A DNA stretch of 20,000 nucleotides, from IMG/VR virus record IMGVR_UViG_3300028187_000002, one strand, 5' to 3'. Positions 5,472 to 19,289 of this stretch are shown piece by piece (the stretch's first letter is position 1; each line of letters begins with the position of its first letter). This DNA is from an uncultured virus (IMG/VR IMGVR_UViG_3300028187_000002). Taxonomy: Duplodnaviria > Heunggongvirae > Uroviricota > Caudoviricetes > Herelleviridae. A model generated the notes under the pieces. The model was given only the letters and a program-made list of their open reading frames with translations, did not search any database and was not told the origin of the DNA. The translations under genes and the position numbers were made by a program.

Positions 5472-5482
5472 GAGGACATAAA

Positions 5483-5914: not shown

Positions 5915-6147
5915 TGAAGGGTGTAGTTAGATGCTGGCAATGTAAAGAGAGGCATGAAGCAGATAGAACCACTTATATCCAGGTTCAGGGGTATATCTAT
6001 CAAGGTAATCAGGAGGTACTGGATGCCAACTGCTCTGGTAAATGTGATCATGAAGAACTACCTTCAGCTAACTTTTGTGCTGACAAGGATTGTCTTATGA
6101 AACATATCAAAGCTAAGAAGGAGGATGCAGACAATGGCATTCGATAA
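5914..6147 (+). CDS. Hypothetical Cys/His zinc-binding protein
   Basis: GGAGGGG RBS; CWQCKERH...FCADKDCL. Confidence 0.75.
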   Translation: MKGVVRCWQCKERHEADRTTYIQVQGYIYQGNQEVLDANCSGKCDHEELPSANFCADKDCLMKHIKAKKEDADNGIR

Positions 6148-6490: not shown

Positions 6491-6503
6491 GAGGATGTAA
6501 ACA

Positions 6504-7130: not shown

Positions 7131-7155
7131 TTTCTGTTTCCAGTCGTGAGAAAAT
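7127..7155 (+). promoter_or_regulatory. Promoter P3 (TTGATT-17-GAAAAT)
   Basis: Same motif; upstream of the helicase gene and followed by a GGTCT...AGACC-closed hairpin. Confidence 0.7.
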
Positions 7156-7214
7156 GGTCTTGTGAGAGGGAGAACCTCCTTCCTCTAGACCAGAGCTAAA
7201 AGGAGAGGGTACTA

Positions 7215-9248
7215 GTGAGTAAATTTATTGATGGGTTAAACCCAAGCCAAGAAACAGCAGTATTAGCAGTAGAAGGTCGTGTACAAATCAATGCAGTAGC
7301 AGGTAGTGGTAAGACTCGTGTTCTAACACACCGTGTAGCACACATGATTACTGACCTTAAAATCAAGCCTAAGCATATCATGATGACAACATTCACTAAG
7401 AAGGCTAGTGAAGAGATGGAAGAGCGTCTGTCTAAGCTTATCCCCCAGATGAAGCTAATGCAGTTAACAATTGGTACTACACACTCTATTGGTTACCGCA
7501 TCTTGAAGAAAGAGTATGAAGCGTTAGGTGACTCTAGAATGTGGGCATTTAAGAAGAAGGATGGAGTACTAATGGGTAACTCTCAAAAGTACTTTGCTGA
7601 GAGTATAGTCAAGGCTATCATGATGGATAGAACAATTGAGTTCAGTATCAAAGAAGAGCTAAGAGACATGCCTATCCCAGGATTACTGAAGGTAGTAGGA
7701 TTGACTAAGAATAATGGTCAGAACTACCAAGACTTTGAAGAAGAGAATAGTGGTAAGGGTACTAGAATGGATTGCTATATCGAGTTCTTCAGACGCTATG
7801 AGATTACTAAGCAGAGCCAAGATAAGATTGATGGTGACGACATGCTATACCTTCTATGGAAGCTGTTTAAGGAGCACCCAGAAGTACTTAAAAAGTACCA
7901 AGACATCTACAAATACATACTAGTGGATGAAGCACAAGATAGCAACTCATTACAGTATGAGCTAATGAGCATGCTAGCTTATCCAGAGAATAACTTATTT
8001 ATCGTAGGTGATGACGACCAGTCTATGTACGGTTTCCGTGGTGCTAAACCAGAACAGTTTATAGAGTTTAGCTCTTCATACAAGAATGTACAGTCCATTG
8101 CATTAGAAGACAACTACCGTAGTAACCCAGCTATTCTACAGATTGCTAACAATCTGATTAAACATAACACTAAGCGTATCAAGAAAACGCTTAAAGCACA
8201 TAAGCAAGATAACAGTGATTGTACAGCATTATCTGTATTCAGAGATGAGACAGAGGAAGCTAAACAGGTAGTAGATGATATCAAGATTCAGATAGAGAAG
8301 AAAGGTAGAGGTCATAAGGACATTGCTATCCTTTACCGTACTAATTCTCAATCTCGTGCTCTAGAAGATGAGCTAATCATGTCAGGTCTACCATATGTTA
8401 TCCATGGAGGTATTTCCTTCTATGAGCGTAAGGAGATTAAGGACATTGTATCTTACCTTAAACTGGCTATTGACCCTCATGCAGATACAGCGTTCAAGCG
8501 TGTGTATAACGTTCCAAGTCGTTATCTAGGTAAAGTGTTCTTTGAGAAGGTTAAGTCATATGATGGCTCACATTGGGAAGCTATTACTTCTGGTAAGTTA
8601 TCTCTTAAAGGTTATGAAACTAATGGTATTCTAAGCTTTACAGCAGTAGTGAGAGAACTACAAGAGCTTCTACGTAAGGATAGTACTCCTACTGATTTAG
8701 TAAATCATTTATTAGACAATGCTGGGTACCGTGAGTATATCCTAGGTGAGGACGATGAGGAAGAAAGTAACCGTCTAGAGAATATTGAGACATTAAAGTA
8801 CGTGTTAGACCGTTATGAGAACGTTGAGGACTTCCTAGGCTATATTGAGATGATGACTTCTCAAGCTAAACATAGTATTGACGGTGTTCAGCTAATGACT
8901 ATCCATAAGAGTAAGGGTCTTGAGTTCCCTGTAGCATTCTGTGTGGGTGTGTCTGAAGGAGTATTGCCTCACTTTAGAGCAGTAGAGTCAGAAAATGATG
9001 GTAAGCCTTTGGCTATTGAGGAAGAGCGTAGATTGTTATATGTTGGTATTACAAGAGCAGAGAGTGAAGTATATATCTCTTGCCTACAATCTTATAATGG
9101 TAGACGTTGTATGGTGAGTCGCTTTGCTAAAGAGCTAGGCATGAGTGCCTTTAGTGCCAAAGCAGTTAATGAAGAGTATGATAGCCGAGTATATCAACAT
9201 ATTAGAGAGCAAGAAGAGGCTATGATGAGAGGTATAGTGGGGGAGTAA
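7215..9248 (+). CDS. pcrA: ATP-dependent DNA helicase, UvrD/PcrA family (SF1A)
   Basis: AVAGSGKT, TFTKKA, VDEAQD, VGDDDQSMYGFRGA, NYRS, ILYRTN, TIHKSKGLEF and EERRLLYVGITRA motifs. Confidence 0.97.
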   Translation: MSKFIDGLNPSQETAVLAVEGRVQINAVAGSGKTRVLTHRVAHMITDLKIKPKHIMMTTFTKKASEEMEERLSKLIPQMKLMQLTIGTTHSIGYRILKKEYEALGDSRMWAFKKKDGVLMGNSQKYFAESIVKAIMMDRTIEFSIKEELRDMPIPGLLKVVGLTKNNGQNYQDFEEENSGKGTRMDCYIEFFRRYEITKQSQDKIDGDDMLYLLWKLFKEHPEVLKKYQDIYKYILVDEAQDSNSLQYELMSMLAYPENNLFIVGDDDQSMYGFRGAKPEQFIEFSSSYKNVQSIALEDNYRSNPAILQIANNLIKHNTKRIKKTLKAHKQDNSDCTALSVFRDETEEAKQVVDDIKIQIEKKGRGHKDIAILYRTNSQSRALEDELIMSGLPYVIHGGISFYERKEIKDIVSYLKLAIDPHADTAFKRVYNVPSRYLGKVFFEKVKSYDGSHWEAITSGKLSLKGYETNGILSFTAVVRELQELLRKDSTPTDLVNHLLDNAGYREYILGEDDEEESNRLENIETLKYVLDRYENVEDFLGYIEMMTSQAKHSIDGVQLMTIHKSKGLEFPVAFCVGVSEGVLPHFRAVESENDGKPLAIEEERRLLYVGITRAESEVYISCLQSYNGRRCMVSRFAKELGMSAFSAKAVNEEYDSRVYQHIREQEEAMMRGIVGE

Positions 9249-9283
9249 TTCCCCCTCTTGCTTTCTTAGAAGAGGGGTATACG

Positions 9284-9418
9284 TTAGTTAAGTGTACTAA
9301 TTGTTATCATCCATACACTTCCTCACCAAAGTTTAGTGATACCCAGCCTGATGAGGTGGAAGATGGCTTGTGTCATGCATGTAAGAAGCTAGAAGCAGAA
9401 CTAGATATAGTTTGGTAG
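9284..9418 (+). CDS. Possible 44-aa CxxC...CxxC protein with no canonical start codon (not in the ORF track)
   Basis: Frame reads LVKCTNCYHPY...GLCHACKKLEAELDIVW*. The RBS-like GAGGGG at 9272-9277 points at a TTA codon. Confidence 0.5.
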   Translation, partial: LVKCTNCYHPYTSSPKFSDTQPDEVEDGLCHACKKLEAELDIVW

Positions 9419-9449
9419 AAAAGACAACCGAGAAAAAGGAGAGGTTCAG

Positions 9450-10202
9450 ATGAACAAGGTATATGAGGAGACTATCAAGAAGGTTAGTGAGTTGCTAAAG
9501 GGGAGCAAGAAGACGGTGGTGTTGAGTGGGGCTGGACTTTCAACCGAATGCGGGCTACAGGATTTTAGAAGCTCTAGCGGTCTCTACAAAAACAGACGTA
9601 TTCAAGAATTAGCTACTACTAGAGGGTTGTGGGATAGCACCTTTGAATTTACTGAGTACTATAGAGAGAGAATTGGTCAAGTGTTAAGTAATGAGCCTGA
9701 TGAGTCTTATATGTGTATTAATGACTGGGCTGAGCAAGGACTGGTACATCACATTATCACCCAGAATGTTGATGGATATCATAGCCAAGTCAATACTGCT
9801 AAGATTCCTGTGCATATGTTGCATGGTGATTTAGCTAGTTGCTTCTGCTCTGCATGTAAAAAGAGTACTCCTAGTTCTTATTACCTGCATAACATCAGAT
9901 GTCCTCATTGTGGTGGACTTCTTAGACCTAACATCGTTCTATTTAACGAGCAGTTATCCCAGAACACTTTAGCCTTATCATTATCTGCGGTGCAGAATGC
10001 TGACCTTACTATTGTAATGGGTTCTTCCCTACAGGTAACCCCAGCAGCTATTCTACCTGCCTACACTAAGAAGAATGGTGGAAGCTTAGTAATCATTAAT
10101 AATGACGAGACACAGCTAGACCATATAGCTGATGTAGTTATAAACGCCCCTCTTGGGAGAACAATAGCGGAAATCAATAAGGAACTAGGTACTTCAGCCT
10201 AG
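9450..10202 (+). CDS. cobB: Sir2-family NAD+-dependent protein deacylase (CobB-like)
   Basis: GAGLS...DFR, TQNVDG.H, catalytic HG, CxxC/CxxC, RPNIVLF, GSSLQV.PA and IIN motifs. Confidence 0.93.
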   Translation: MNKVYEETIKKVSELLKGSKKTVVLSGAGLSTECGLQDFRSSSGLYKNRRIQELATTRGLWDSTFEFTEYYRERIGQVLSNEPDESYMCINDWAEQGLVHHIITQNVDGYHSQVNTAKIPVHMLHGDLASCFCSACKKSTPSSYYLHNIRCPHCGGLLRPNIVLFNEQLSQNTLALSLSAVQNADLTIVMGSSLQVTPAAILPAYTKKNGGSLVIINNDETQLDHIADVVINAPLGRTIAEINKELGTSA

Positions 10203-10210
10203 TTCCTTTT
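10179..10210 (+). terminator. Intrinsic terminator
   Basis: AAGGAACTAGG/CCTAGTTCCTT 11-bp dyad plus T-tract. Confidence 0.85.
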
Positions 10211-10217
10211 CATTTGT

Positions 10218-10246
10218 TTGACTTCTGGGGTGGTTTCCTTCAAAAT
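10218..10246 (+). promoter_or_regulatory. Promoter P4 (TTGACT-17-CAAAAT)
   Basis: Same motif, immediately after a terminator. Confidence 0.7.
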
Positions 10247-10260
10247 GAAGTCATCAAGTT

Positions 10261-10326
10261 GAGTTGGTTGGTTCACTCTACGGAGTAGCTAAGGATGGAG
10301 ATTCCGTTCTTCGGGCAAACTAACTT
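10261..10326 (+). promoter_or_regulatory. Structured 5' leader (predicted three-way junction)
   Basis: Closing stem GAGTTGGTT/AACTAACTT encloses ACTC-TACG-GAGT and AGGATGGA-GAT-TCCGTTCT hairpins. Confidence 0.5.
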
Positions 10327-10360
10327 CAAAAGATACCAAAGATAAAAGGAGCTGGTTATA

Positions 10361-10765
10361 ATGGCAGTAAAACAACGTATTATCACTAAACAAATGCAGG
10401 CACATGTAGACCAATATCTAAAGATATATGAGGCATCTAAAACTCTAGAGAAAGAATTGAAAAGATTACGTGGTCTTATAGAAGATGAAATGGAAGCACG
10501 TCAGGTGTACGCTATATCAGGTACTAATGGTGGTGGAGTTGAGCTACAAGAGGGTGAGAGAGTAGTGCAGAATGCTTTGTACACTACGTATGACCCTTCA
10601 TTACTAACTGCTATCCCTGCTGGGTTGGCACGTCAGTGTAAGGAGATTGTAGTCAACAAGGATATGGTAGAGGGATTTATCAAAGAGAAGAAGCTATCTA
10701 GAAAGATGTGTGATGAGTTTAAGATTAAGAAGCCTTCTGTAACATTCAAGACTACAGTACTATAA
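10361..10765 (+). CDS. Hypothetical coiled-coil protein (weak Gp157/Gam-like architecture)
   Basis: AAAGGAG RBS; N-terminal coiled coil followed by a small C-terminal domain. Family assignment is tentative. Confidence 0.75.
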   Translation: MAVKQRIITKQMQAHVDQYLKIYEASKTLEKELKRLRGLIEDEMEARQVYAISGTNGGGVELQEGERVVQNALYTTYDPSLLTAIPAGLARQCKEIVVNKDMVEGFIKEKKLSRKMCDEFKIKKPSVTFKTTVL

Positions 10766-10784
10766 ACATAGGAGGTGGGGGTCT

Positions 10785-11165
10785 ATGGGTCTCTTTGGAG
10801 ATTTCTTTAGACGGTTGGGTGGGAAGGCTTATGAGCGAGATTTACGTAAGCAGTATGATCATCGTAAGCGTAAGTGGACAGAGCACGGGTACTGGAAGAA
10901 CATCGGTACCCCTATCCATGATAACTGGGAATGGGTTGACCTTAAACCTGGAAAGTATGAAGCCCCTAAGTGGCTTAATGTTATAGAGATGCCTGAAGGT
11001 CATTACCTTATAAAACTAACTGATGAGATACTTCCTGATACAGAAGAGGTTGTCAAATGTGGATGCGTAAGGGACGTAGAAATTTCTGTAGAGCTATTGA
11101 AAAGTTATTATGAGTGTCTAGGTGACGTAATAGTTGACGTTAATACCGAGAAGAGAACAATTTAA
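10785..11165 (+). CDS. Hypothetical protein
   Basis: AGGAGGT RBS; amphipathic N-terminus MGLFGDFFRRL. Confidence 0.75.
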   Translation: MGLFGDFFRRLGGKAYERDLRKQYDHRKRKWTEHGYWKNIGTPIHDNWEWVDLKPGKYEAPKWLNVIEMPEGHYLIKLTDEILPDTEEVVKCGCVRDVEISVELLKSYYECLGDVIVDVNTEKRTI

Positions 11166-11202
11166 TCGTCCTCGTTTTATTAATCCAAAGGAGAGTGTCT
11201 GT

Positions 11203-11433
11203 ATGACAAACGTGATTGAGTTTACAGCTAAGAGTAGTCGTAAGGGAGTAGCATCAGTACCAGTTAAGGGTGACCTTTTTGACCAGATGTTAGCTAGTGA
11301 GATAGAAACAGTATTAAAGGCTACAGGTTTACCAGATGGGGAGTCAGCTATCAAGTTTGTATCTGACTTTTATAGAAAGTATCCAGCGTTAGTGGAATAT
11401 GCTCGTAGTCAAGAGAACCTACTAAGGAGGTAA
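11203..11433 (+). CDS. Hypothetical protein
   Basis: Start moved to ATG 11203 after AAAGGAGAG. Confidence 0.75.
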   Translation: MTNVIEFTAKSSRKGVASVPVKGDLFDQMLASEIETVLKATGLPDGESAIKFVSDFYRKYPALVEYARSQENLLRR

Positions 11434-11438
11434 CTGTG

Positions 11439-11690
11439 ATGGCTGACCAAATGATTATGCATTTTCGTAGAATGAGGGGTATTCCTGTAAAGGGTAGACT
11501 AGTATTAGAAGTCAACTACGAAGAGGGTACAATTAAGCAAGTTAGAGAAGGCTTAGATGAGAATGGTTCAGATAAGTGGATGCACGATGACTTACCTGAA
11601 GAGTGCAAGTATTGTGGTAAGGAAGTAGACAATGCAGGTAAGGTTGCCTGTAACAGTTGCATAGATAAACGTAAAGATACGTTGGAGTAG
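11439..11690 (+). CDS. Hypothetical protein with a C-terminal zinc ribbon
   Basis: AAGGAGG RBS; CKYC...CNSC. Confidence 0.75.
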   Translation: MADQMIMHFRRMRGIPVKGRLVLEVNYEEGTIKQVREGLDENGSDKWMHDDLPEECKYCGKEVDNAGKVACNSCIDKRKDTLE

Positions 11691-11702
11691 GAGGAAATTA
11701 TT

Positions 11703-11825
11703 ATGGATAACAATATTATGGGTGGATTAGCTAGAGCATTACGTAACTATCACTACTATGAGAAGTCAGGACGTAACCCCGTCCTGTCTCCTTTCTCACT
11801 ATTCCGTAGATTATTCAATAGCTAG
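11703..11825 (+). CDS. 40-aa small protein (below the ORF-track cutoff)
   Basis: AGGAGG RBS; MDNNIMGGLARALRNYHYYEKSGRNPVLSPFSLFRRLFNS*; fills the gap between its neighbours. Confidence 0.7.
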   Translation: MDNNIMGGLARALRNYHYYEKSGRNPVLSPFSLFRRLFNS

Positions 11826-11847
11826 TCCCCTAAAGGGGGTGAGACCT

Positions 11848-12039
11848 GTGGGGAAGCGTAAGGACACTTTGATAGCTTTTCAGCTAGAAGTAAGTGAAGC
11901 CATGAGGAAGAATAAGCACGGCTATAAGACTTTGCTGAAGCGAGTACAGAACAAAGTGTTTCGTAATATTACTAGGTCAGAGCATGAGAGTACGTTGGAG
12001 AGTTTAGTAGTCAAGAAGTGGAGCAGTAGAGATGTTTGA
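11848..12039 (+). CDS. Hypothetical basic protein
   Basis: GTG start after AAAGGGGGTG; the 11758 start would overlap the 40-aa ORF. Confidence 0.7.
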   Translation: MGKRKDTLIAFQLEVSEAMRKNKHGYKTLLKRVQNKVFRNITRSEHESTLESLVVKKWSSRDV

Positions 12040-12117
12040 CAACTGGTGAGGATACACAATATTTGGTTCTAACATCAAGAGACCACACATAGTCTAATAT
12101 AAAAAGGAGTGTGTTCT

Positions 12118-12300
12118 ATGAAAGGGAGAAGAGAAGCTGTAGTAAAGTTGAATGTGATTAAGATAGATATTGATTACCAGTTACAGGCTTTATTTGATGC
12201 TATGCAGTCTAAAGATGACCAAGCCAAACAACAAGCTAAAGCTAACCTCTATACCCTTCGCAACCAGTTGAATGACCAGACAAAACTTATGGGGGTATAG
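12118..12300 (+). CDS. Hypothetical helical protein
   Basis: ATG 12118 is properly spaced from AAAAGGAG. Confidence 0.7.
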   Translation: MKGRREAVVKLNVIKIDIDYQLQALFDAMQSKDDQAKQQAKANLYTLRNQLNDQTKLMGV

Positions 12301-12302
12301 TT

Positions 12303-12563
12303 ATGAAAGGCTTCATCAAGTATATTCCATGGGCAATACGAGCAGCATCTATACTGATGTTATTTATCTACTTGGGTAATGTGAAAGATATGATTGATAT
12401 TTATAACACCAGGGTAGAAGATGCACAGTCTGCTATGCAGGCTACCCAATTGTCTAGTGAGTCAATTATGCAAATGATACGACATGTAGCAGTAGTAGTC
12501 ACTTTTGGTTTATTGTGGATAGCATTAGAGATTAATGTGATACGTGGTATGGAGAAGAAGTAG
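12303..12563 (+). CDS. Small membrane protein with two predicted TM helices
   Basis: Hydrophobic segments WAIRAASILMLFIYL and VAVVVTFGLLWIAL. Confidence 0.75.
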   Translation: MKGFIKYIPWAIRAASILMLFIYLGNVKDMIDIYNTRVEDAQSAMQATQLSSESIMQMIRHVAVVVTFGLLWIALEINVIRGMEKK

Positions 12564-12640
12564 ACTTTGTTAGATGCTTGCCCCTTAGGGGGTGAGTATT
12601 ATAGAGAGTCTAAGGCTCTGAGTTAAAAGGGGAGAGGAAT

Positions 12641-12844
12641 ATGAATAGTAGGGGAGTAGGCATTGCATATGGTAGAGTCAAGCAAGATAATAGGCATAAG
12701 GACAAGATTATCAAGGAACACCGAGGTAGAATAAGAGAACTAGAAATACAGGTAAGAAGGCAAGAAGATATCATCAGAGAACAGGCTAGACAGATAAAGG
12801 AGCATAATGAACTCTGGAGGGGATTAGATGAAACTAGAAAATAG
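12641..12844 (+). CDS. Hypothetical coiled-coil protein
   Basis: AAAAGGGGAGAGG RBS. Confidence 0.75.
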   Translation: MNSRGVGIAYGRVKQDNRHKDKIIKEHRGRIRELEIQVRRQEDIIREQARQIKEHNELWRGLDETRK

Positions 12845-13130
12845 TAAAGAAGACTTGATTGTGTGTATACGTTCAGCAATGTTAGAGGGAGCAGAATGGA
12901 TGTCTCTATTAGTGGTGATGCCAGAGCACCCAGCACCACAGCTTATTATTGACCCTAAGGAAAACTTTACTGCAAGACTTAACTTTCTACGCAATACATA
13001 CAACGAGAATTTAGAACATGCTCACAACCCAGCAGTACGAATCGTAGGGTTTTCTAGCGGGTCTAGTGTATCTAAAGTATCTAAGATTTATAAGCTATAT
13101 ATGAAAAAACTACAAGAGGGAGAGAAATAA
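12828..13130 (+). CDS. Hypothetical phage protein
   Basis: GGAGGGG RBS, 100 aa. Confidence 0.8.
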   Translation: MKLENSKEDLIVCIRSAMLEGAEWMSLLVVMPEHPAPQLIIDPKENFTARLNFLRNTYNENLEHAHNPAVRIVGFSSGSSVSKVSKIYKLYMKKLQEGEK

Positions 13131-13131
13131 T

Positions 13132-13554
13132 ATGAAACTAATCATTGGTAAGGTGGCGTCTGGTAAGAGCCAGAGGGTAATTGATATCGCTAAGGAGAAG
13201 GCAGTTGAGGGTAAGGCTACTTTGATTGTGACAAGCCTAGCAGATGAACTAGGGGAGCGCTTTGGAGCTGCTAAACGTGAGTTATCAGAGCATAAAGATA
13301 ACTTCATGGTCACCTCCATTAGACCAGATACCTCCAGTAACCCAGAGATGGCAGTAGTAAAGGGTATGATCCCTGTATTTGGAGCAGTACCTGATGTTAT
13401 AATCGTACATGCTGAGATATTCTCTAGGGAACTGGTGTTAGCCTTAATGAACCTAGAACCAGTGTTGAAAGCAGAGGTTTATATGGTGGTACAAGCCAAT
13501 AGCGAGTTTGCACCAGGAGTACAGGTAGTAGACGTGGAAGAGGTGATTAACTAA
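13132..13554 (+). CDS. Small P-loop protein, possibly a degenerate NTPase
   Basis: N-terminal LIIGKVASGKS Walker A; the Walker B-like strand DVIIVHAE lacks the Asp. Confidence 0.7.
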   Translation: MKLIIGKVASGKSQRVIDIAKEKAVEGKATLIVTSLADELGERFGAAKRELSEHKDNFMVTSIRPDTSSNPEMAVVKGMIPVFGAVPDVIIVHAEIFSRELVLALMNLEPVLKAEVYMVVQANSEFAPGVQVVDVEEVIN

Positions 13555-13814
13555 TGGTAGTAGTATCTTCTAGAAAGTTTGCTAATTTGCTAAACATGAT
13601 TAAAGGTCTAGAGTTAGTAGATGCAGAGATAATTATACATGATGACAATAGTGGTAATTTTGATGAGGTTGTACTAAAGTTTAAGGATGGTAAAGACCAG
13701 AAGGTAGTTAGTATTACTCCTGATTGGGAGCAGAGGAAGTCCGATAGAGATATTATTGATACTACTCTAGTGGTTGATGTCACTGAGATGGTTACTACTA
13801 GGCTCATAAAATAA
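13554..13814 (+). CDS. Hypothetical protein
   Basis: TAATG coupling and GAGGTG RBS. Confidence 0.75.
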   Translation: MVVVSSRKFANLLNMIKGLELVDAEIIIHDDNSGNFDEVVLKFKDGKDQKVVSITPDWEQRKSDRDIIDTTLVVDVTEMVTTRLIK

Positions 13815-13829
13815 AGGGGGACAAGCTTT

Positions 13830-14114
13830 ATGAATACAGTTAAAGATGCTAAGTTAAAGAGGGTACTTGAGTTACGACACATGATAGAAGAGACTAAGAA
13901 GAATGAGACAGAGATGTCTAAGGAACTATCCACTCTAGAGAAGGAACTATATATGGAGTGTGAACATGAACGTATGACTCGTGTAAGTGATTGGGAGAGG
14001 GTAGACACTAGTACAGAGCTAGTATTCATGAAAGCTAACTACAAGTGCGATGAGTGTGGTCACATAGAATCCATTATGGGAAGGGCGGATAGCAATGTTG
14101 GCATCAACAAATAA
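13830..14114 (+). CDS. Hypothetical coiled-coil protein with CEH...CDECGH zinc motif
   Basis: AAAGGGG RBS. Confidence 0.75.
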   Translation: MNTVKDAKLKRVLELRHMIEETKKNETEMSKELSTLEKELYMECEHERMTRVSDWERVDTSTELVFMKANYKCDECGHIESIMGRADSNVGINK

Positions 14115-14508
14115 CGATGAGGCTATACAGAAGATGCTTAATGATAACTGTGAAGTGCGATTCATTCGTATACATAATGGTGAGGTAAGGGAGTTATGCA
14201 TGGAGCGTTTTGGTAAGGCATTCGTTGTACGCTTCGCACCGTTAAGTGACCCTAAGATAATGAAACCAGAGTATTCTGTCTATAAGGTAGGGAGAAATGG
14301 TAGAGAGATTAGAGTAGCAGCCTTCTTTGCAGAGGAACTAGAAGACAATATGGCTAACTTTGGTTTCCGTGATGGCATGCTAGATGAATGGTATGGGAAA
14401 CTAGTAGATAACCCTAATGAGAGGTTCTATAACTCTAACCACACATTCTACATTGCTAGAACCCCTGAAAGTGAACGTGGATTTAAGAACAGTATACTAC
14501 CATACTAG
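14095..14508 (+). CDS. Hypothetical protein
   Basis: 137 aa, ending directly at a terminator. Confidence 0.75.
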   Translation: MLASTNNDEAIQKMLNDNCEVRFIRIHNGEVRELCMERFGKAFVVRFAPLSDPKIMKPEYSVYKVGRNGREIRVAAFFAEELEDNMANFGFRDGMLDEWYGKLVDNPNERFYNSNHTFYIARTPESERGFKNSILPY

Positions 14509-14535
14509 GACTCCTACGGGAGTCCTTTTCTTTTT
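14507..14535 (+). terminator. Intrinsic terminator with a UACG tetraloop
   Basis: AGGACTCC-TACG-GGAGTCCT followed by TTTCTTTTT. Confidence 0.9.
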
Positions 14536-14574
14536 GTCCTCCGTCTCCTTTCCCCTCCTACAAAACTTTCTAAT

Positions 14575-14607
14575 GAAGTTCCCAATCATTCTCCTATTGG
14601 GAACTTC
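14575..14607. repeat. Perfect 12-bp inverted repeat
   Basis: GAAGTTCCCAAT-N9-ATTGGGAACTTC. Confidence 0.85.
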
Positions 14608-14728
14608 CCCCGAATCCGTTTGCCTTTCCGAGAACTTTCCTATTAGATTTGATAACGATTTCTCTTGTTTGAAATTGTATCCAAACTTCATATATTTCTT
14701 TATAGTTGGTAACATTAGGAGGTGCATG

Positions 14729-14875
14729 ATGGAAGGACAGAAGAGAGTAGTAGAAGCTATAGTAGACGGAGTAAGAGTCACAGGAGTCCTAGTTGCCAGT
14801 GAGAATGGCAAGTATGTAATACAGCTTGAGGATGGTAGCAGAGTAGTGTCTGATAATATCAAGGAGGTAGAATAG
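14729..14875 (+). CDS. 48-aa small beta-rich protein (first gene of the cassette)
   Basis: AGGAGGT RBS at 14717-14723; this is the C-terminal part of the ORF-track 14417 ORF. Confidence 0.75.
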   Translation: MEGQKRVVEAIVDGVRVTGVLVASENGKYVIQLEDGSRVVSDNIKEVE

Positions 14876-14876
14876 A

Positions 14877-15554
14877 ATGGCTAACTTTTTCTATATTACT
14901 GTCGATACTGTTGGTCCAGCTAACCCTACAGCTAGCATAGAGAGTGGAGCACAATATACTACTAAACAACTTGTAAACGTTGCTATAGGAACAACAGATG
15001 CTAGTACAGTTGGATACCAAATGAAGATTTGGGGAGATGTAGACAAGGCTAATGATTCTGATATTCAGGATACAGAGGTAGCGTCTAACTGGATTTCCTA
15101 CACACTTACGAAACAGATTAAGCTAACACCTGGTGATGCAGATAAGACTATCAATATTAAGATTCGAGACGATGTACTCAATGAATCAGCAGTAGCTTCC
15201 GATAGTATTAAGTTAAGTGCAACATTACCTAACGTTACTACAGTTGCTTCTGATGTACGTGTATCTAAGAAAGCTACTAAAGATGGATACACATTTACAT
15301 TCTCTGCTGACAAGCCATTTACTGAGTATGCAGTTAAGGTAGTGGCTAATGCATCATCAGCACAGAACACAGGTACTACTATCCCTACAACTAACGGTTC
15401 TGTTAATACTTCTGGCACAGGAACATTCGATACTTCTTCAGTGCCTATCAACGTTACTATTAAGACAAATGACTTACTAGTAGCTAGCTCTGGGGATGGA
15501 CAGAAAGGTATCAAAGTATTTGTTAAGGATGCCGCAGGGAACTGGAGTGCATAA
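14877..15554 (+). CDS. Ig-like domain protein (two beta-sandwich domains), probably virion-associated
   Basis: T/S/V-rich, with Ig-like end motifs KTINIKIRDDVLN and KGIKVFVKDAAGNWS. Confidence 0.75.
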   Translation: MANFFYITVDTVGPANPTASIESGAQYTTKQLVNVAIGTTDASTVGYQMKIWGDVDKANDSDIQDTEVASNWISYTLTKQIKLTPGDADKTINIKIRDDVLNESAVASDSIKLSATLPNVTTVASDVRVSKKATKDGYTFTFSADKPFTEYAVKVVANASSAQNTGTTIPTTNGSVNTSGTGTFDTSSVPINVTIKTNDLLVASSGDGQKGIKVFVKDAAGNWSA

Positions 15555-15556
15555 TT

Positions 15557-16009
15557 ATGGGTAACTTTTTCACTATAACTGTAGATACAACACCTCCAAC
15601 TATTGAACTTATCCATCCTAGACAACCTATCTATGGAGTTAATACTGAAATTATAGTGAAAGCTAGTGAAGAATTGGCTGAATACCAAGGTCTATATCTA
15701 GAAGATAGCCTTGGTATTCGTCATCCACTCATTGGCACATTGGAGTACGACACTATTACTTACAGAACTAACTTCCTTGGTGTGGCTCTGGGTACATGTA
15801 GAATCTATTGTACGGTAAAGGATGTTGTGGACAATATGTCAGAGGAATTTATATCAGTAATAAACCTACGTACATCAGCTCTAGCTAATAAGCAAGAATT
15901 AGAGTTGGGTAACCAAGCATTGACTGAACTAGAGACAGGTGTGATGCCTATCGTTGAAATGGAAGTATGGGTGACACCTAAGATTACCCTAGAAGAAGGA
16001 GGGTGGTAA
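15557..16009 (+). CDS. Ig-like domain protein
   Basis: ITVDTTPPTI...IYCTVKDVVDN; N-terminus shared with 14877. Confidence 0.7.
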   Translation: MGNFFTITVDTTPPTIELIHPRQPIYGVNTEIIVKASEELAEYQGLYLEDSLGIRHPLIGTLEYDTITYRTNFLGVALGTCRIYCTVKDVVDNMSEEFISVINLRTSALANKQELELGNQALTELETGVMPIVEMEVWVTPKITLEEGGW

Positions 16010-16010
16010 T

Positions 16011-16325
16011 ATGTTACAGAAGAACGAGGGAGCTATAGTCTACCAGACAGGTAATACACAACGGTTCTGGTGTAGATTTAGAGACCACAATAACAAAATA
16101 GTAGAGCCAGATATGGTGAAGTTCCGTATCATGGACACTAAGACAGAGAAGGTAATAGAAGAGTTCGATGTACCTAAAACACAGAGAATAGAGGGTGCAT
16201 ATTATCATGACTATATATTACCAGAGAAGGCTCAAATGATCACATATGAATGGTATAGTGAAACAGGAGGGTATCCAAACTTAAAGCGTAAGCAGTTCGA
16301 CACTAAGTTCTTAGGACGTTGGTGA
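16011..16325 (+). CDS. Beta-sandwich hypothetical protein, probably structural
   Basis: AAGGAGGG RBS; beta-strand pattern; located within the cassette. Confidence 0.7.
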   Translation: MLQKNEGAIVYQTGNTQRFWCRFRDHNNKIVEPDMVKFRIMDTKTEKVIEEFDVPKTQRIEGAYYHDYILPEKAQMITYEWYSETGGYPNLKRKQFDTKFLGRW

Positions 16326-16329
16326 GCAT

Positions 16330-17265
16330 ATGGGCATAATAACAGATGGGTTAATTGGATATTGGAATGCACAGAAAGATTGTACCCCTACTCTATGGAA
16401 GAACATCGCTCCTGCTACAGTAGGAACATTAGATGGGATTCCTACAGGGGGTAACCTAGTCATCGAGGGGGATGGCGTGGTTAACATAGCACCTAGATAT
16501 ATTACTGTACCAGGCATTAACTTATCTACAGGGCAGTCTACTATGGAGATAGTATTTTCTCTTAGGAGACCAGAGGATACATCTAAGATGACAATGATTA
16601 TGTTCGGTGTAGGGTTTGAAATGCTAGCCTTAGCTAAGTCAGGTACTCAATTGAATGCACTGGGAGCTATTACTAGACCTGTTCAGTATAATGCTGAGGT
16701 GGTTATGGATGGTAAGACTCAGCTAGCAATAGTCAACACTGGTGGAGCAGGCGATGTATACATGAATGGTGTTAAGATTGGTACTCTGGCTGGTTTGGGT
16801 AACTACGCTAAGAACAACTACAATCTGTACATTGGTGCATCATTCCTTAGTGGTACTGCTAGTCAACAGTTCGATGGTAAGATACATGCAGCTAGAATGT
16901 ACAACAAAGCACTTACTCCTGCACAAATATTAGAGAACTATAACAGTTCCTCTGATATAGGACTCACCAATCCTGCACCATTAGTGACTATCACTAACAT
17001 AACAAGGACTACTGTGAGTAAGAAGTTAGGTGTAGACAAGGCTACGATTACATTCAAGTTCGATAAGGATGTACAGAAGTATGAGTTTAGAGCTGGTGGT
17101 ATGGGGCAAGGATTGGGTGTACTATTGAGTACAGGTACAAGCAAGACTGCTAATGAAGTCATTACCACTGACCTATACTATTCTGACCAACTATTAGAAG
17201 GTATCAACAAGATAAATATCTATGGACAAGATATGGCAGGCAACTGGACACCTTACGAATCCTAA
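16330..17265 (+). CDS. LamG/concanavalin A-like lectin domain fused to a C-terminal Ig-like domain
   Basis: IITDGLIGYW, VYMNG, LYIG and FDGKIHAARMYNKALTPAQI are typical of Laminin_G_3-like domains; C-terminal IYGQDMAGNW. Confidence 0.85.
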   Translation: MGIITDGLIGYWNAQKDCTPTLWKNIAPATVGTLDGIPTGGNLVIEGDGVVNIAPRYITVPGINLSTGQSTMEIVFSLRRPEDTSKMTMIMFGVGFEMLALAKSGTQLNALGAITRPVQYNAEVVMDGKTQLAIVNTGGAGDVYMNGVKIGTLAGLGNYAKNNYNLYIGASFLSGTASQQFDGKIHAARMYNKALTPAQILENYNSSSDIGLTNPAPLVTITNITRTTVSKKLGVDKATITFKFDKDVQKYEFRAGGMGQGLGVLLSTGTSKTANEVITTDLYYSDQLLEGINKINIYGQDMAGNWTPYES

Positions 17266-17305
17266 AGGCAGGGCTACTCTTTCTAGAGTGTTCCTGCCTT
17301 TTCTT
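17264..17305 (+). terminator. Intrinsic terminator
   Basis: AAAGGCAGG...TACTCT/AGAGTG...CCTGCCTTT plus T-tract. Confidence 0.8.
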
Positions 17306-17396
17306 TATGTATAGAAATGGTAACCATACACAGATGTATTTCGGTGTAAAAGTTATGGTGTCCAGAATCGTTTTATTTGGTATGACTTTCTGTCAT

Positions 17397-17424
17397 TTGA
17401 ATTATGTACTGAATTGTCTATAGT
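17397..17424 (+). promoter_or_regulatory. Candidate sigma-A promoter (TTGAAT-16-TATAGT)
   Basis: Near-consensus hexamers with a 16-bp spacer, upstream of a structured ORF-free segment. Confidence 0.5.
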
Positions 17425-17430
17425 TTATAT

Positions 17431-17646
17431 GTGTAACCGTCAGTTAGGAAGCAGTTATTAAAAGTAAAGTTTAGTTCAGTACTCACTGACACACACTTTA
17501 CTGTGATAGCAAGCATCCAGAACGGAGCTAGAAAACCTTAGTTTTACTAGGGTTTTCACACATGGAGAGCTTGCTATCAAGCGTACATCTCCTTTATAGT
17601 TGCTATGCAAGGAAGAGAGTTCTTTTATATAAGGACTCTCTTTTTT
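17431..17646 (+). ncRNA. Candidate structured non-coding RNA (~215 nt), family not recognised
   Basis: Has a candidate promoter and terminator and no obvious ORF with an RBS. Stems: 17463-70/17495-502, 17476-80/17485-89, 17504-14/17569-79 (11 bp perfect), 17531-42/17546-57. Confidence 0.55.
17613..17646 (+). terminator. Intrinsic terminator with no CDS upstream
   Basis: AAGAGAGTTCTT/AAGGACTCTCTT dyad plus T-tract. Confidence 0.8.
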
Positions 17647-17834
17647 GTATGCCTTTATATCGTTACACTCACAAACATTCTCAATCTCCTATTTCTAAAT
17701 CAATAAACTAAGGAGATGAATCCTATAGGATTTATGAGAATCATTTGAGTAGAAACGATATTTAGGGCATGTGCCCCAAAGGGGTGCTGAGATAAGCACT
17801 ATCTCACACAACTGGCAACAGGGGCTACCGAGCA

Positions 17835-17911
17835 TGTCAACGGAGCATAGCGGAGGTGTCAGCGGAGCCATACGGATGCAAAGCGGAGTAGGGAGGTACC
17901 AGCGGATACCT
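17835..17911 (+). repeat. Degenerate tandem array of (A/G)CGGA motifs
   Basis: CGGA at 17841, 17851, 17863, 17873, 17884 and 17903; ~22-bp units TGTCAACGGAGCATAGCGGAGG and TGTCAGCGGAGCCATACGGATG. Confidence 0.8.
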
Positions 17912-18273
17912 GTAGCGTAACCCTAGTTGACACTTGGTGGCAGGATAGTGTGGGTGGGGAAAGTATGCATAGGAGCATACAAAGAGTAACTGGGAGTACC
18001 AGTGTACTCACTCACGAACACAAAGTTATACTGTGTGGAGAATAGATAGGGAATCACAGTTCTATTAATGTAGATGAGCAGGTATAGTATGAATGACTGG
18101 TGATACAGTACACAAACACCCGTTTGGGTGACCCGTACCGCCCCCTATAGGCGCACCATACCTAATTTTTCTACTCCAACTCACTTTGCTTATCTTACAA
18201 ATTGCTACTTACACACAGCCAAGATATGGCATCAACCATCAATAAAACTACTAAAGGAGAGTGCCACAACCAT

Positions 18274-18579
18274 ATGTCACAGGATAACTTTAGTATCAGT
18301 AAACCTCTGATAGGTACTGACCCATCATACGGAGCAGACAGAGATTATATAGATAAACAATTCAACAGTATACAACAAGGCACTGCCCCTACGTGCATTG
18401 TATGCACTAATACGGCAGGGTTTAAGTTAATACCTAAACTCACACATCTAAATACAGCGGAGATACAGGATAGAGGATATGTGTGTGAACACTGTCTTAA
18501 GCAACAGTATTTTAAACCAGAAGAGTATGGCATTAGACCCATACCTACACCCAACAACATTGGAGGTAGTCTACTATGA
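18274..18579 (+). CDS. Hypothetical zinc-binding protein
   Basis: CIVC...CEHC; ATG 18274 downstream of AAAGGAGAG (long spacer); ATGA overlap with the next gene. Confidence 0.7.
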   Translation: MSQDNFSISKPLIGTDPSYGADRDYIDKQFNSIQQGTAPTCIVCTNTAGFKLIPKLTHLNTAEIQDRGYVCEHCLKQQYFKPEEYGIRPIPTPNNIGGSLL

Positions 18580-19289
18580 CGAATAGAAAGAAGCTCACTA
18601 TTGAAGAGCTATCCACAGAAATGCTAGAAACTAGACACCATAAGCTAGAGCGCCTAGTAAAGTGGGAACATGGGGATGAGGTTAATGAGATGCTGCTTAC
18701 AGGGGTATCCCCTCATAAGGTATCTGACTGGTGTAAGGAGAGAGGCTTTAATATATCTCACCCAAAACTATACGAATATAAAGAGATGCTACAGGAAGCT
18801 ATCACAAAGCAGATAACGGTGGAGAGAATGCTAGGTATTGGGATGCCAAAGCGTAAACCTATAGTACTTAACACCATAGCTTTGCAAAATACTAAGCACA
18901 TGGTTAAGAGTGAGTTAGAAGTACTAGACGGTATCATACAGATTGGTATGAACAGTTTATACACTTCCCCAACAGTTAAACTACAAGATGCTATGAAGGC
19001 TATAGAGCTAAAGCATAAATTAACTGGTGGTAATCATGGGGCACTCACTAGCTACGGTCTAGACCAGCTGAGAGCAGTAGAGCAAGCTAAGTTCCAAGCT
19101 ATCATAGAAGTGGTTATGAAATACTTACCAGAAGATAAGCATGCTGAACTAGAACAGGCAATACTAGATGCAGAGCGTGGATACTATGAGAACTATGCAC
19201 CAGAACTACTAGAGGAATATGAGAAGACTGTAGATGAGCAGTATGGAGATGACAAGGATACAATAGTAGTATCAGATAGCCAATTCTAA
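18576..19289 (+). CDS. HTH-containing helical protein, candidate terminase small subunit
   Basis: N-terminal HTH-like segment (EVNEMLLTGVSPHKVSDWCKERGFNISHPKLYEY), helical AMKAIELKHKLTG segment and acidic tail. The CDS is secure, but the terminase call is only inferred from position and architecture. Confidence 0.5.
   Translation: MTNRKKLTIEELSTEMLETRHHKLERLVKWEHGDEVNEMLLTGVSPHKVSDWCKERGFNISHPKLYEYKEMLQEAITKQITVERMLGIGMPKRKPIVLNTIALQNTKHMVKSELEVLDGIIQIGMNSLYTSPTVKLQDAMKAIELKHKLTGGNHGALTSYGLDQLRAVEQAKFQAIIEVVMKYLPEDKHAELEQAILDAERGYYENYAPELLEEYEKTVDEQYGDDKDTIVVSDSQF

What the first reader, a model, noticed from the sequence alone, without database searches (positions are those of the whole stretch)
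17397..17646. Candidate stand-alone structured phage ncRNA with its own promoter and terminator
Seen: after the cassette terminator come a promoter-like TTGAAT-16-TATAGT, about 215 nt with no evident gene, and a second terminator. The segment pairs into a nested hairpin (AGTAAAGT/ACTTTACT around TCAGT-ACTC-ACTGA) and a long rod. The rod has an 11-bp perfect stem TGATAGCAAGC/GCTTGCTATCA, then TCCA/TGGA, an asymmetric bubble containing ACGGA, and a 12-bp apical stem. GTCAGT (17439-17444) can pair alternatively with ACTGAC (17485-17490), suggesting a conformational switch. I do not recognise it as tRNA, tmRNA, SRP or a T-box. Inference: a phage sRNA acting as a protein decoy (for example 6S-like RNAP or CsrA binding), an RNA antitoxin mimic, or a packaging-associated RNA.
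Basis: partly seen in the sequence, partly recalled or inferred. Interest (0 to 1): 0.75.

Follow-up and report, generated by a model that had tools for sequence, protein, structure and literature searches.

The report
Conserved non-coding hairpin unit near phage repeat
A 250-base gene-free stretch of a CP-51-like Bacillus phage looks like a small structured RNA gene with its own promoter and terminator, and it is strongly conserved, but nothing yet shows that it is made as a separate RNA or what it does.

Summary
All the motifs are at the stated coordinates. The 216-nt stretch folds far better than shuffles (z -6.9). The second terminator is canonical. No Rfam family matches.

The window is a Siminovitchvirus (CP-51/Shanette/JL-like Bacillus phage). 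The unit lies in a 0.9-1.3 kb gene-free gap, 480-730 bp before the start of the 16-kb terminal repeat.

For an RNA gene:
- The body 17431-17600 varies at 7.6% of columns, against 14-30% in the neighbouring genes.
- The promoter hexamers never vary, while 8 of the 23 other positions counted around them do.
- Invariance begins at the predicted transcript start.
- No reading frame is under protein constraint.
- The + strand folds better than the - strand.

Against, or open:
- Only 8 near-identical variants exist, so covariation is uninformative (1 compensated pair of 52).
- The promoter motif alone is at chance level.
- Soil metatranscriptome contigs cover the region but mostly run in from the upstream gene, and show no abundant discrete RNA.
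- A covariance model finds no homologue in SPO1-like or Bastille-like phages.

The RNA has two equal-energy folds.

Verdict: a plausible, unproven, genus-specific phage sRNA candidate. The structured DNA just downstream, up to the repeat boundary, may be at least as interesting.

The parts
17264..17301 (+). Intrinsic terminator T1 of the upstream structural-gene cassette (the gene 16330-17265 encodes a Laminin_G_3 protein).
   Evidence: Inverted repeat I2. It folds at -22.8 kcal/mol with z -5.2. The CP-51 version differs at 11 of 38 columns and still folds at -20.6 kcal/mol.
17397..17424 (+). Sigma-A-type promoter-like site P1: TTGAAT, a 16-nt spacer, then TATAGT. The predicted start is about 17431-17433.
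   Evidence: Found by the scan at 9 of 12, which alone is at chance level. Across 10 sequences the 12 hexamer positions never vary. Six of the 16 spacer positions vary, and 17430-17431 vary. Positions 17432-17483 are then invariant. The hypergeometric P for 0 of 8 variable positions falling in the hexamers is 0.021.
17433..17462 (+). Invariant 5' leader, largely single-stranded in the rod fold.
   Evidence: Invariant in 8 of 8 variants. Mean unpaired probability is 0.5.
17463..17502 (+). Nested hairpin 1: an 8-bp outer stem, a 5-bp inner stem and the loop ACUC.
   Evidence: Pair probabilities are 0.99 and 0.96. All 13 pairs are invariant, and the loop changes C>U in 2 variants.
17504..17579 (+). 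Rod: an 11-bp perfect basal stem, a 4-bp TCCA/TGGA stem, an asymmetric internal loop (GAACGGAGCUA against ACACA) and a 12-bp apical stem with loop UUU. Its 5' arm can instead pair with 17454-17460. GGAGA at 17564-17568 can then pair with UCUCC at 17588-17592.
   Evidence: I13 and I14. The rod-constrained fold and the unconstrained fold have equal energy, -72.8 kcal/mol. The rod has about 0.10 and the alternative about 0.87 of the ensemble. One apical pair changes C-G to A-U in 2 variants, a third variant has C.U, and two neighbouring apical pairs are broken in 3 variants.
17580..17610 (+). Linker. The 5' part, AGCGUACAUCUCCUUUAUAGUU, is invariant and pyrimidine-rich, and resembles an anti-Shine-Dalgarno sequence. 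The last 10 nt (17601-17610) are variable. A second promoter-like site, TTGCTA-18-TATAGT, lies at 17571-17600.
   Evidence: (17601-17610 is 50% variable). CATCTCCTT at 17586-17594 is the exact complement of AAGGAGATG at 17710-17718 (I23).
17611..17646 (+). Intrinsic terminator T2: a 12-bp core stem (up to 19-20 pairs if the flanks are counted), a 6-nt loop and a U6 run.
   Evidence: -24.5 kcal/mol, z -7.8. The variants L009 and CP-51 still fold. Its 3' half plus GTATGCCTTT is identical in SPO1 and Goe10.

Best explanation
This is a genus-specific, non-coding transcription unit of CP-51-like (Siminovitchvirus) Bacillus phages. Host sigma-A RNA polymerase would start at about 17431-17433 from P1 and stop at the intrinsic terminator T2, at about 17646. 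The product would be an RNA of about 215 nt.

That RNA would have five parts:
- an invariant single-stranded 5' leader;
- a very stable nested hairpin;
- a 76-nt rod, which is one of two equal-energy folds;
- an invariant pyrimidine-rich linker;
- the terminator hairpin.

I take it to act in trans as a small regulatory or protein-binding RNA. The rod fold leaves the linker (CAUCUCCUUU) free. The alternative fold hides it in a GGAGA/UCUCC helix. So the RNA could switch between an active and an inactive form.

Shown:
- the structure and the terminator;
- sequence conservation above that of the neighbouring genes;
- the absence of coding constraint;
- the restriction to one genus;
- the two folds.

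Inferred:
- that P1 fires;
- that the RNA is released at T2;
- that it acts in trans;
- the role of the linker.
For: - Conservation: the body 17431-17600 has 7.6% variable columns, against 14.5-30.5% in the four upstream genes and 16-69% in the four downstream genes (6 sequences).
- Promoter pattern: 0 of 12 hexamer positions vary, while 8 of the 23 other positions between 17397 and 17431 do. Fifty-two invariant positions then begin at 17432, right at the predicted start (P 0.021).
- Terminators: T2 is a canonical terminator that stays foldable in divergent variants. T1, just upstream, ends the preceding operon.
- Folding: z -6.9 for the unit and -5.2 for the body. The + strand folds better than the - strand, at -72.8 against -65.0 and -51.6 against -48.9 kcal/mol, with 6-9 G.U pairs against 2.
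- No protein: every + frame has stops. The one open - strand frame (34 codons) changes its amino acid at 7 of its 9 variable codons, some radically.
- Orientation: the same as every gene in the window.
- Precedent: small and long ncRNAs were reported from RNA-seq in other Herelleviridae (phage K, PMC9241854, passages read; Listeria phage CKA15, PMC12282133, passages read).
Against: - No discrete transcript is shown. Four soil metatranscriptome runs were laid as contigs. In 3 of them one contig joins the upstream gene to the unit across T1 and P1. In 2 of those 3 it also crosses T2. In the fourth run, X24, a separate contig crosses T2. In X24 the region has depth 3.8 and 2.6, against 14.8 upstream and 30.1 downstream, and its contig begins at 17377, before P1. 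Contigs cannot show ends, strand or local depth, and DNA in these libraries is not excluded.
- The promoter is a 9 of 12 match with a 16-nt spacer and no TG. It is one of 53 such matches in the window, against 54 expected.
- There is no covariation. In the rod model 46 of 52 pairs never vary and 1 pair changed on both sides; 400 of 500 shuffles reach that.
- The stems are Watson-Crick perfect, so a DNA-level role fits them too.
- The SPO1-like phages have different, weakly structured sequence in the same slot.
- No target complementarity above shuffles was found in the 76-kb contig.
Confidence: 0.42

Rival explanations
1. It is the 5' part of a longer structured RNA or leader, not a stand-alone gene. 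Transcripts from P1, or read-through from the late operon, would continue past T2 into the Y-shaped domain 17651-17767, and perhaps into the 345-nt multi-hairpin domain that ends at the terminal-repeat boundary. T2 would be a conditional or leaky stop, and the bistable body would set the amount of read-through.
For: - Structured, conserved sequence continues without a break. The window 17601-17770 has the lowest fold z of all 397 170-nt windows scanned (-15.4 with mononucleotide shuffles; 17601-17790 gives -8.5 with dinucleotide shuffles), and 17652-17780 is only 7.7% variable.
- Contigs cross T2 in 3 of 4 runs: X12 runs to 17755, X24 covers 17577-17773 and X23 runs to 17672.
- In X24 an island of cover, 17377-17773, is cut off on both sides.
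- The promoter-structure-terminator layout is that of an attenuator.
- The + strand folds better than the - strand over the whole 17431-18132 stretch (-250 against -215 kcal/mol).
Against: - No antiterminator pairing that could compete with the 12-20 bp T2 stem was found by inspection. The best alternatives are 5-7 bp.
- T2 has a full U6 run.
- No open reading frame follows for 550 nt.
- Contigs do not prove single molecules or RNA origin.
- The linker just before T2 is the most variable part (50%).
Confidence: 0.2
2. It works as DNA, not RNA. It would be part of the cis-acting module at the junction between the unique sequence and the terminal repeat. The inverted repeats, extruded as hairpins or bound by terminase or replication proteins, would help concatemer cutting, repeat duplication or initiation of replication. 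Any local promoter would serve only to open the DNA.
For: - It lies 480-730 bp from the repeat start. The JL record annotates a 16,292-bp repeat from its base 1, which is about window 18126-18127; Shanette's base 1 is window 18130.
- The stems are perfect Watson-Crick, and the - strand also folds well (z -5.3).
- The gap as a whole shares motifs with SPO1 and Goe10 at the same place: the T2 3' half plus GTATGCCTTT, GAGTAGnnACGATATTTAgGGC, arrays of short repeats, and CCGCCCCC(T)ATAGG at the repeat start.
- From memory, not from a call here: phage T7 has short-repeat arrays, a gene-less promoter and a hairpin-forming region beside its terminal repeat.
Against: - The body itself is absent from SPO1-like phages, which share the junction motifs. 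So it is not part of the conserved core.
- The + strand is consistently more stable, with G.U pairs that would be A.C on the other strand.
- The unpaired leader and linker are as invariant as the stems.
- The onset of invariance coincides with a predicted transcript start.
Confidence: 0.2
3. It has no product function. It would be a transcriptional insulator: two strong terminators in tandem, with filler between them, keeping late transcription out of the early genes of the terminal repeat. Its apparent conservation would reflect the recent common ancestry of the few known genomes.
For: - Two strong terminators lie 310 nt apart.
- All known variants are at least 91% identical.
- A slot between two terminators is also present in SPO1, with unrelated, weakly structured filler (z -2.3).
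Against: - Filler should vary at least as much as synonymous sites. The body instead varies half as much as the most conserved neighbouring gene, while T1, the T1-P1 spacer and the linker vary freely (29%, 22% and 50%).
- The extreme fold z is not expected of filler.
Confidence: 0.1
4. It encodes a 34-residue protein on the - strand: AAGGAG, 8 nt, then a TTG start at 17577-17579, reading leftwards to a stop inside hairpin 1.
For: The Shine-Dalgarno sequence and its spacing are good, and the frame is open in 8 of 8 variants.
Against: - Seven of the 9 variable codons change the residue (C/F, V/K, L/R, R/M, S/G, H/R, E/K) and only 2 are synonymous. That is no purifying selection on a protein.
- The frame runs through perfect 11- and 12-bp inverted repeats.
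- No - strand promoter was found to its right.
- Every other gene is on the + strand.
Confidence: 0.03

Closest known systems
ncRNAs of other Herelleviridae found by RNA-seq (phage K snc001-007 and lnc001/002, PMC9241854; Listeria phage CKA15 intergenic RNAs, PMC12282133)
   Same: They are intergenic and gene-free, some have their own promoter, they come from large virulent myoviruses of Firmicutes with long terminal repeats, and their function is unknown.
   Different: Those were defined by transcription data. This one is defined only by sequence, structure and conservation. No sequence or model-level homology was tested against phage K or CKA15. The model R1 found nothing in Goe10, phiBsKO1-1 or BCP78.
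phi29 pRNA (packaging RNA, Rfam RF00044; family number recalled from memory)
   Same: It is a Bacillus phage RNA of about 170-220 nt, encoded near a genome end, rod-like with internal loops.
   Different: There is no Rfam match even at E<=10. By inspection, the hairpin-1 loop ACUC and the apical loop UUU are not complementary to each other. The phage has a terminase-type, terminal-repeat genome rather than a protein-primed one.
6S RNA
   Same: It is a structured RNA of about 200 nt containing a rod with an internal bubble.
   Different: The rod is only 76 nt, with an 11/5-nt asymmetric loop rather than a large central open-promoter-like bubble. No 6S family matches.
Right-end elements of phage T7 (gene-less promoter phiOR, short-repeat arrays, hairpin region beside the terminal repeat); recalled from memory, not checked in a call here
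   Same: A promoter with no gene behind it and arrays of short repeats lie just inside the unique sequence, next to a direct terminal repeat.
   Different: Here an efficient-looking terminator stands between the promoter and the junction. The polymerase would be the host's. No functional data exist.
Riboswitch or attenuator leaders
   Same: The order is promoter, conserved structured domain with alternative folds, then intrinsic terminator.
   Different: No competing antiterminator was found, no gene follows for 550 nt, and no Rfam family matches.

Membership tests
Any described RNA family (Rfam 15, 4227 models) | A covariance-model score at or above the family's gathering threshold. | tested here: not met
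   There were 0 matches in the whole window. At E<=10 on 17200-18600 there were 12 matches, all 14-23 bits against thresholds of 38-114. The only ones inside the unit (RsaE, sau-5971, microRNA families) sit mainly on the terminator.
Independent bacterial-type sRNA gene | Its own promoter upstream. | tested here: inconclusive
   The motif is a 9 of 12 match, at chance frequency. But its hexamers are invariant while the spacer and flanks vary (P 0.021).
Independent bacterial-type sRNA gene | An intrinsic terminator at the 3' end. | tested here: met
Independent bacterial-type sRNA gene | A discrete transcript with defined ends. | tested here: inconclusive
   Only contigs of 4 metatranscriptome runs could be laid. 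There was cover but no defined ends. In 3 of 4 runs a contig is continuous with the upstream gene.
Independent bacterial-type sRNA gene | No protein-coding constraint. | tested here: met
Structured RNA supported by covariation | Compensatory changes in the stems beyond what controls give. | tested here: not met
   Rod model: 52 pairs, 1 with changes on both sides, reached by 400 of 500 shuffles. Minimum-energy model: 74 pairs, 1 with changes on both sides, reached by 387 of 500. Only 8 variants exist, all at least 91% identical, so the test has little power.
6S RNA | A long closed rod with a large central bubble, and a match to a 6S model. | tested here: not met
   No match. The rod is 76 nt with a small asymmetric loop.
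CsrB/RsmZ-type protein sponge | Many GGA motifs, mostly in hairpin loops. | tested here: not met
   There are 5 GGA in 214 nt against 2.4 in shuffles, P 0.08. By inspection, none lies in a hairpin loop of either fold.
phi29-type pRNA | A match to the family model, and two loops complementary to each other for ring formation. | tested here: not met
   No match. By inspection, the loops ACUC and UUU are not complementary.
Type III antitoxin RNA (ToxI-like) | Tandem direct repeats of about 34-36 nt next to a toxin gene. | tested here: not met
   There are no tandem repeats in 17200-18600; the direct-repeat families found are short two-copy matches. No adjacent gene exists.

The most novel reading that the evidence does not exclude
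The unit would be the first RNA gene described for SPO1-group (Spounavirinae) phages. It would be a bistable RNA of about 215 nt, made at the very end of the unique genome. It would work together with the adjacent, covarying multi-hairpin domain that ends exactly at the terminal-repeat boundary. Its role could be to control transcription into the right-hand copy of the early 'host-takeover' repeat, or to serve as an RNA cofactor that marks the concatemer junction for cutting and packaging. That would be an RNA-assisted solution to how phages with long direct repeats define their ends.
Probability: 0.1. Interest if true: 0.75.

Novelty: new member of a known kind. Interest (0 to 1): 0.4.

Why it matters
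Non-coding RNAs of large virulent Gram-positive phages are barely charted, and none has a known function in the SPO1 group. This unit is more conserved than the genes around it, which argues that it does something. It also sits in a gene-free, hairpin-dense gap next to the terminal-repeat boundary. How that boundary is recognised and how the repeat is duplicated is, to my knowledge, unknown for SPO1-like phages. I ran no search on that point and could not read the SPO1 genome paper.

If the RNA is real, CP-51, Shanette and JL are cultivable phages of Bacillus cereus-group laboratory strains in which it can be tested directly. If it is only DNA signal or insulator, the finding still marks the cis-acting junction region, and shows that the small ORFs annotated there in GenBank are probably spurious.

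Tried and rejected
- Distant homologues. The anchor CTCTTTTTTGTATGCCTTT found 10 loci in viral contigs: 8 CP-51-like, SPO1 and 1 chance match. It found 53 loci in metagenome contigs, of which blastn related only 1, and that was a duplicate of a known one. The basal-stem pattern with a gap found 2 chance hits in genome contigs, in Psychrobacter and Phocaeicola, and the same 8 viral loci. blastn 'distant' in the phage collection found 3 phages in 6 records. No relative below 91% identity was found.
- Covariance model R1 (166 positions, 40 pairs). It gave no match at E<=10 in Goe10, phiBsKO1-1 or BCP78. CP-51 and the window's own 76-kb contig each hold a single copy. The SPO1 record itself was not held for this search.
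- Target search. The longest complementary runs (G.U allowed) of the leader, bubble, linker and whole RNA against the sense strand of the 76-kb contig were 13, under 11, 15 and 18 nt. Shuffled-query maxima reached 15, 15, 19 and 19 nt, so nothing stands above chance. A first RNAduplex version timed out.
- Metatranscriptome contigs. Parts without cover were 17324-17376 and 17774-17781 in X24, 17756-17785 in X12, 17532-17811 in X16 and 17673-18023 in X23. The low depth of the unit in X24 and these holes cannot be read as absence or as transcript ends. They are hints only.
- SPO1 slot. L027:890-1212 folds with z -2.3, and the stretch after its terminator with z +0.2. No structural counterpart exists there.
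- The phage's better promoter-like sites in the repeat region (10 of 12 with TG) do not resemble P1, so they lend it no support.
- Earlier notes of this scan: three look-ups returned nothing.
- Papers. The SPO1 genome paper (PMC2666789) is not held. The reviews and terminus papers I read in passages (PMC4113786, PMC5418689, PMC3896407) say nothing about this gap.

Full report
WHERE THE WINDOW COMES FROM

The window is the reverse strand of bases 20317-40316 of a 76-kb IMG/VR virus contig. By blastn the region 17200-18600 matches only three deposited phages: Bacillus phages CP-51 (89.9%), Shanette (94.0%) and JL (92.2%). All three belong to the genus Siminovitchvirus, subfamily Spounavirinae, family Herelleviridae.

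All ORFs of 80 codons or more that look like genes lie on the + strand. The finding sits in a gene-free gap. On its left is a 311-residue protein with a Laminin_G_3 domain (16330-17265). On its right are two proteins of unknown function, phrog_32508 and phrog_1007, starting at 18202.

The JL record annotates a 16,292-bp terminal repeat that starts at its base 1. JL base 1 corresponds to about window 18126-18127, and Shanette base 1 to 18130. So the unit is the last thing in the unique part of the genome, 480-730 bp before the repeat.

THE OBSERVATION

- The 216-nt stretch 17431-17646 folds at -72.8 kcal/mol with z -6.9. None of 200 dinucleotide shuffles does as well.
- The body without the terminator has z -5.2.
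- The reverse strand also folds well, but less so (z -5.3 and -3.9).
- The second terminator is canonical (-24.5 kcal/mol, U6).
- The first terminator, at 17264-17301, is real. The CP-51 version differs at 11 of 38 columns and still folds.
- The promoter-like site is a 9 of 12 match. That is no better than chance: 53 such sites in the window against 54 expected.
It pairs 17454-17460 with 17504-17510, and GGAGA with UCUCC. Forcing the rod gives exactly the same energy. The ensemble holds about 10% rod and about 87% alternative.

KNOWN FAMILIES

No Rfam family matches at gathering thresholds in the whole window. With permissive filters on 17200-18600, the 12 matches up to E 10 are all far below threshold. 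ARAGORN finds no tRNA or tmRNA.

RELATIVES AND CONSERVATION

I collected relatives through the neighbouring protein, a 19-base anchor just after the terminator and a gapped pattern of the basal stem. After removing duplicates and chance matches, only eight distinct versions exist: the window, Shanette, JL, CP-51 and four metagenomic contigs. All are at least 91% identical over 281 nt.

In a six-sequence alignment of 5.4 kb, the share of variable columns is:

| Segment | Variable columns |
|---|---|
| Body 17431-17600 | 7.6% |
| Four upstream genes | 14.5-30.5% |
| Four downstream genes | 16-69% |
| First terminator (T1) | 29% |
| Spacer before the promoter | 22% |
| 10-nt linker before T2 | 50% |

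So the body is under stronger sequence constraint than its coding neighbours.

The promoter region shows a telling pattern. None of the 12 hexamer positions varies. Six of the 16 spacer positions vary, and so do 17430-17431. Then 52 invariant positions begin at 17432, just where a transcript from this promoter should start. The chance that none of 8 variable positions falls in the hexamers is 0.021.

COVARIATION

Covariation cannot decide. In the rod model 46 of 52 pairs never vary. One apical pair changes C-G to A-U in two variants and is C.U in a third. Two neighbouring apical pairs are broken in three variants. Shuffles reach this 400 times in 500. The minimum-energy model fares the same.

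Of the 13 variable body columns, 5 lie in the 80 paired columns and 8 in the 90 unpaired columns. The single-stranded leader and most of the linker are as invariant as the stems.

CODING POTENTIAL

All three + frames carry stops in every variant. One - strand frame of 34 codons has a good Shine-Dalgarno sequence and is open in 8 of 8 variants. But 7 of its 9 variable codons change the residue, some radically, and it runs through the perfect inverted repeats. The small ORFs annotated here in the Shanette and JL records differ between the two records and are probably spurious.

BEYOND THE GENUS

A covariance model of the body finds nothing at E<=10 in the SPO1-like phages Goe10 and phiBsKO1-1, or in the Bastille-like BCP78. 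It finds a single copy in CP-51 and in the window's own contig.

SPO1 and Goe10 do have the same layout: a gene-free gap of about 1.1-1.2 kb before the repeat. They share several motifs with the window:
- the 3' half of the second terminator plus GTATGCCTTT (19 of 19 bases);
- GAGTAGnnACGATATTTAgGGC...AAAGGG;
- an array of short repeats;
- CCGCCCCC(T)ATAGG at the repeat start.

Between their two terminators, however, they carry unrelated sequence that is only weakly structured (z -2.3). So the body is a genus-specific occupant of a variable slot, inside an older conserved junction region.

EXPRESSION

Twenty-three soil metatranscriptome runs hold the 935-nt stretch 17266-18200. Only assembled contigs of four runs could be laid.

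- The unit is covered in all four runs (in X16 only up to 17531).
- In three runs one contig runs from the upstream gene across the first terminator and the promoter into the unit.
- Contigs cross the second terminator in three runs.
- In the fourth run (X24) the unit lies in an island of cover, 17377-17773. Its depth is 3.8 and 2.6, against 14.8 upstream and 30.1 downstream.

This gives no support for an abundant discrete RNA. But contigs cannot show ends, strand or local depth. Small structured RNAs are often lost in such libraries. DNA carry-over is not excluded.

In all four runs a new contig begins at 17782, 17786, 17812 (directly behind adapter letters) or 18024. It has 2.0-3.5 times the depth and runs on for kilobases into the repeat. 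That hints at a transcript start upstream of the repeat boundary.

TARGETS AND PROPOSED FUNCTIONS

Complementarity of the leader, bubble, linker or whole RNA to the 76-kb contig is no longer than for shuffled queries. GGA motifs are not enriched. There are no tandem repeats. No 6S, pRNA, ToxI or CsrB-type model matches.

The invariant linker CAUCUCCUUU resembles an anti-Shine-Dalgarno sequence. It is the exact complement of AAGGAGATG 115 nt downstream (I23). A 9-base match is not significant on its own.

WHAT LIES NEXT TO IT

Right after the second terminator, 17651-17767 folds into a Y-shaped nested inverted repeat of about 117 nt. The 170-nt window 17601-17770 has the lowest fold z of the whole 20 kb.

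Then CCCAAAGGGGTG (17775-17786) pairs with CACCCGTTTGGG (18117-18128). This closes a multi-hairpin domain of about 345 nt that ends at the repeat start. In it, one hairpin (17788-17806) occurs in four different sequence versions that all pair, and another swaps C-G for G-C.

Over 17431-18132 the + strand folds at -250 kcal/mol against -215 for the - strand. So the unit may be the first part of a larger structured region.

VERDICT

The best reading, at about 0.42, is a genus-specific small RNA gene. A host-type promoter, an RNA of about 215 nt with two equal-energy folds, and an intrinsic terminator would give an RNA acting in trans. This rests on conservation above coding level, the promoter's variation pattern, the terminator, the lack of coding constraint and the strand asymmetry. 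It lacks the two decisive supports, a mapped transcript and covariation.

The rivals are:
- part of a longer leader or large structured RNA that reads through the terminator (0.2);
- a DNA-level element of the terminal-repeat junction (0.2);
- an insulator with no product (0.1);
- a small - strand protein (0.03).

It is not in Rfam. My searches, and the passages I read in five papers, turned up nothing on this gap. I file it as a new member of a known kind, a candidate phage sRNA, with moderate interest.

Noticed in passing
window 17651-17767: Directly after the second terminator lies a Y-shaped nested inverted repeat of about 117 nt: GCCUU/AGGGC, AUAUCGUU/AACGAUAU, ACUCA/UGAGU, UUCUCA/UGAGAA, AUCUCCU/AGGAGAU and GAAUCC/GGAUUU. 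The 170-nt window 17601-17770 has the lowest fold z of the whole 20-kb window (-15.4 with mononucleotide shuffles; 17601-17790 gives -8.5 with dinucleotide shuffles). Only 7.7% of its columns vary. It buries a Shine-Dalgarno-like AAGGAG followed by ATG, which would open a 9-codon mini-frame. The SPO1 equivalent is not structured.
   Followed up: partly
window 17775-18128: CCCAAAGGGGTG (17775-17786) and CACCCGTTTGGG (18117-18128) are complementary and invariant in 8 of 8 variants. They close a multi-hairpin domain of about 345 nt that ends exactly at the terminal-repeat start. The hairpin 17788-17806 occurs in four sequence versions that all pair: GAGATA/TATCTC, GGGTTA/TAACCC, TGGTTAC/GTAGCCA and GAGGTA/TACCTC. 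The hairpin 17966-17983 swaps C-G for G-C in 3 variants. This is real structure-preserving variation, stronger than anything in the finding itself.
   Followed up: partly
window 17839-17910; L027 1395-1500 and 1700-1997: The window has six RCGGAK motifs about 10-13 nt apart. SPO1 and Goe10 have CGAAGG-type repeats at the same place, plus tandem repeats of about 61 nt just before the repeat boundary. These may be binding sites for a packaging or regulatory protein. AACGGAGC also occurs in the internal loop of the finding's rod (D17), but an 8-mer repeat is not significant.
   Followed up: no
window 17755-18024: In all 4 metatranscriptome runs laid, a new contig begins at 17782, 17786, 17812 (directly behind adapter letters) or 18024. 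Its depth is 2.0-3.5 times that of the contig to the left, and it runs for kilobases into the repeat. If this is RNA, a transcript starts upstream of the repeat boundary. In that case only the right-hand copy of the repeat, or a concatemer junction, has this promoter. The conserved GATATT box at 17757-17762, shared with SPO1, lies just upstream.
   Followed up: partly
window 17647-17665; L027 1201-1219; L018 3411-3429: CTCTTTTTTGTATGCCTTT, the 3' half of the terminator plus 13 bases, is identical between this phage and SPO1/Goe10. Their neighbouring protein is only about 62% identical. By contrast the ordinary terminator T1 varies freely among close relatives. That is too conserved for a plain terminator.
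   Followed up: partly
L018 3250-3370 (Goe10); L027 1060-1160 (SPO1): There are two tandem copies of a promoter-like element: TTTACAAsCCC..AACATC..GTATCTTrmAAT. The second scores TTAACA-17-TACAAT, 10 of 12. They lie just before the conserved terminator in SPO1-like phages. This suggests a very short transcription unit in the same slot. The window has an analogous second promoter-like site at 17571-17600.
   Followed up: no
window 17354-17461 and 17562-17711 (Shanette gp220 and gp221; JL gp220): Small ORFs annotated as hypothetical proteins in GenBank overlap the unit. They lack ribosome-binding sites by inspection, and they differ between the Shanette and JL records. They are probably annotation artefacts.
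   Followed up: partly
window 201-420, 12451-12620 and 14451-14670: Other 170-nt windows have strongly negative fold z, from -5.3 to -6.9 with mononucleotide shuffles. Some overlap predicted terminators, for example 14507-14526. I did not examine them.
   Followed up: no
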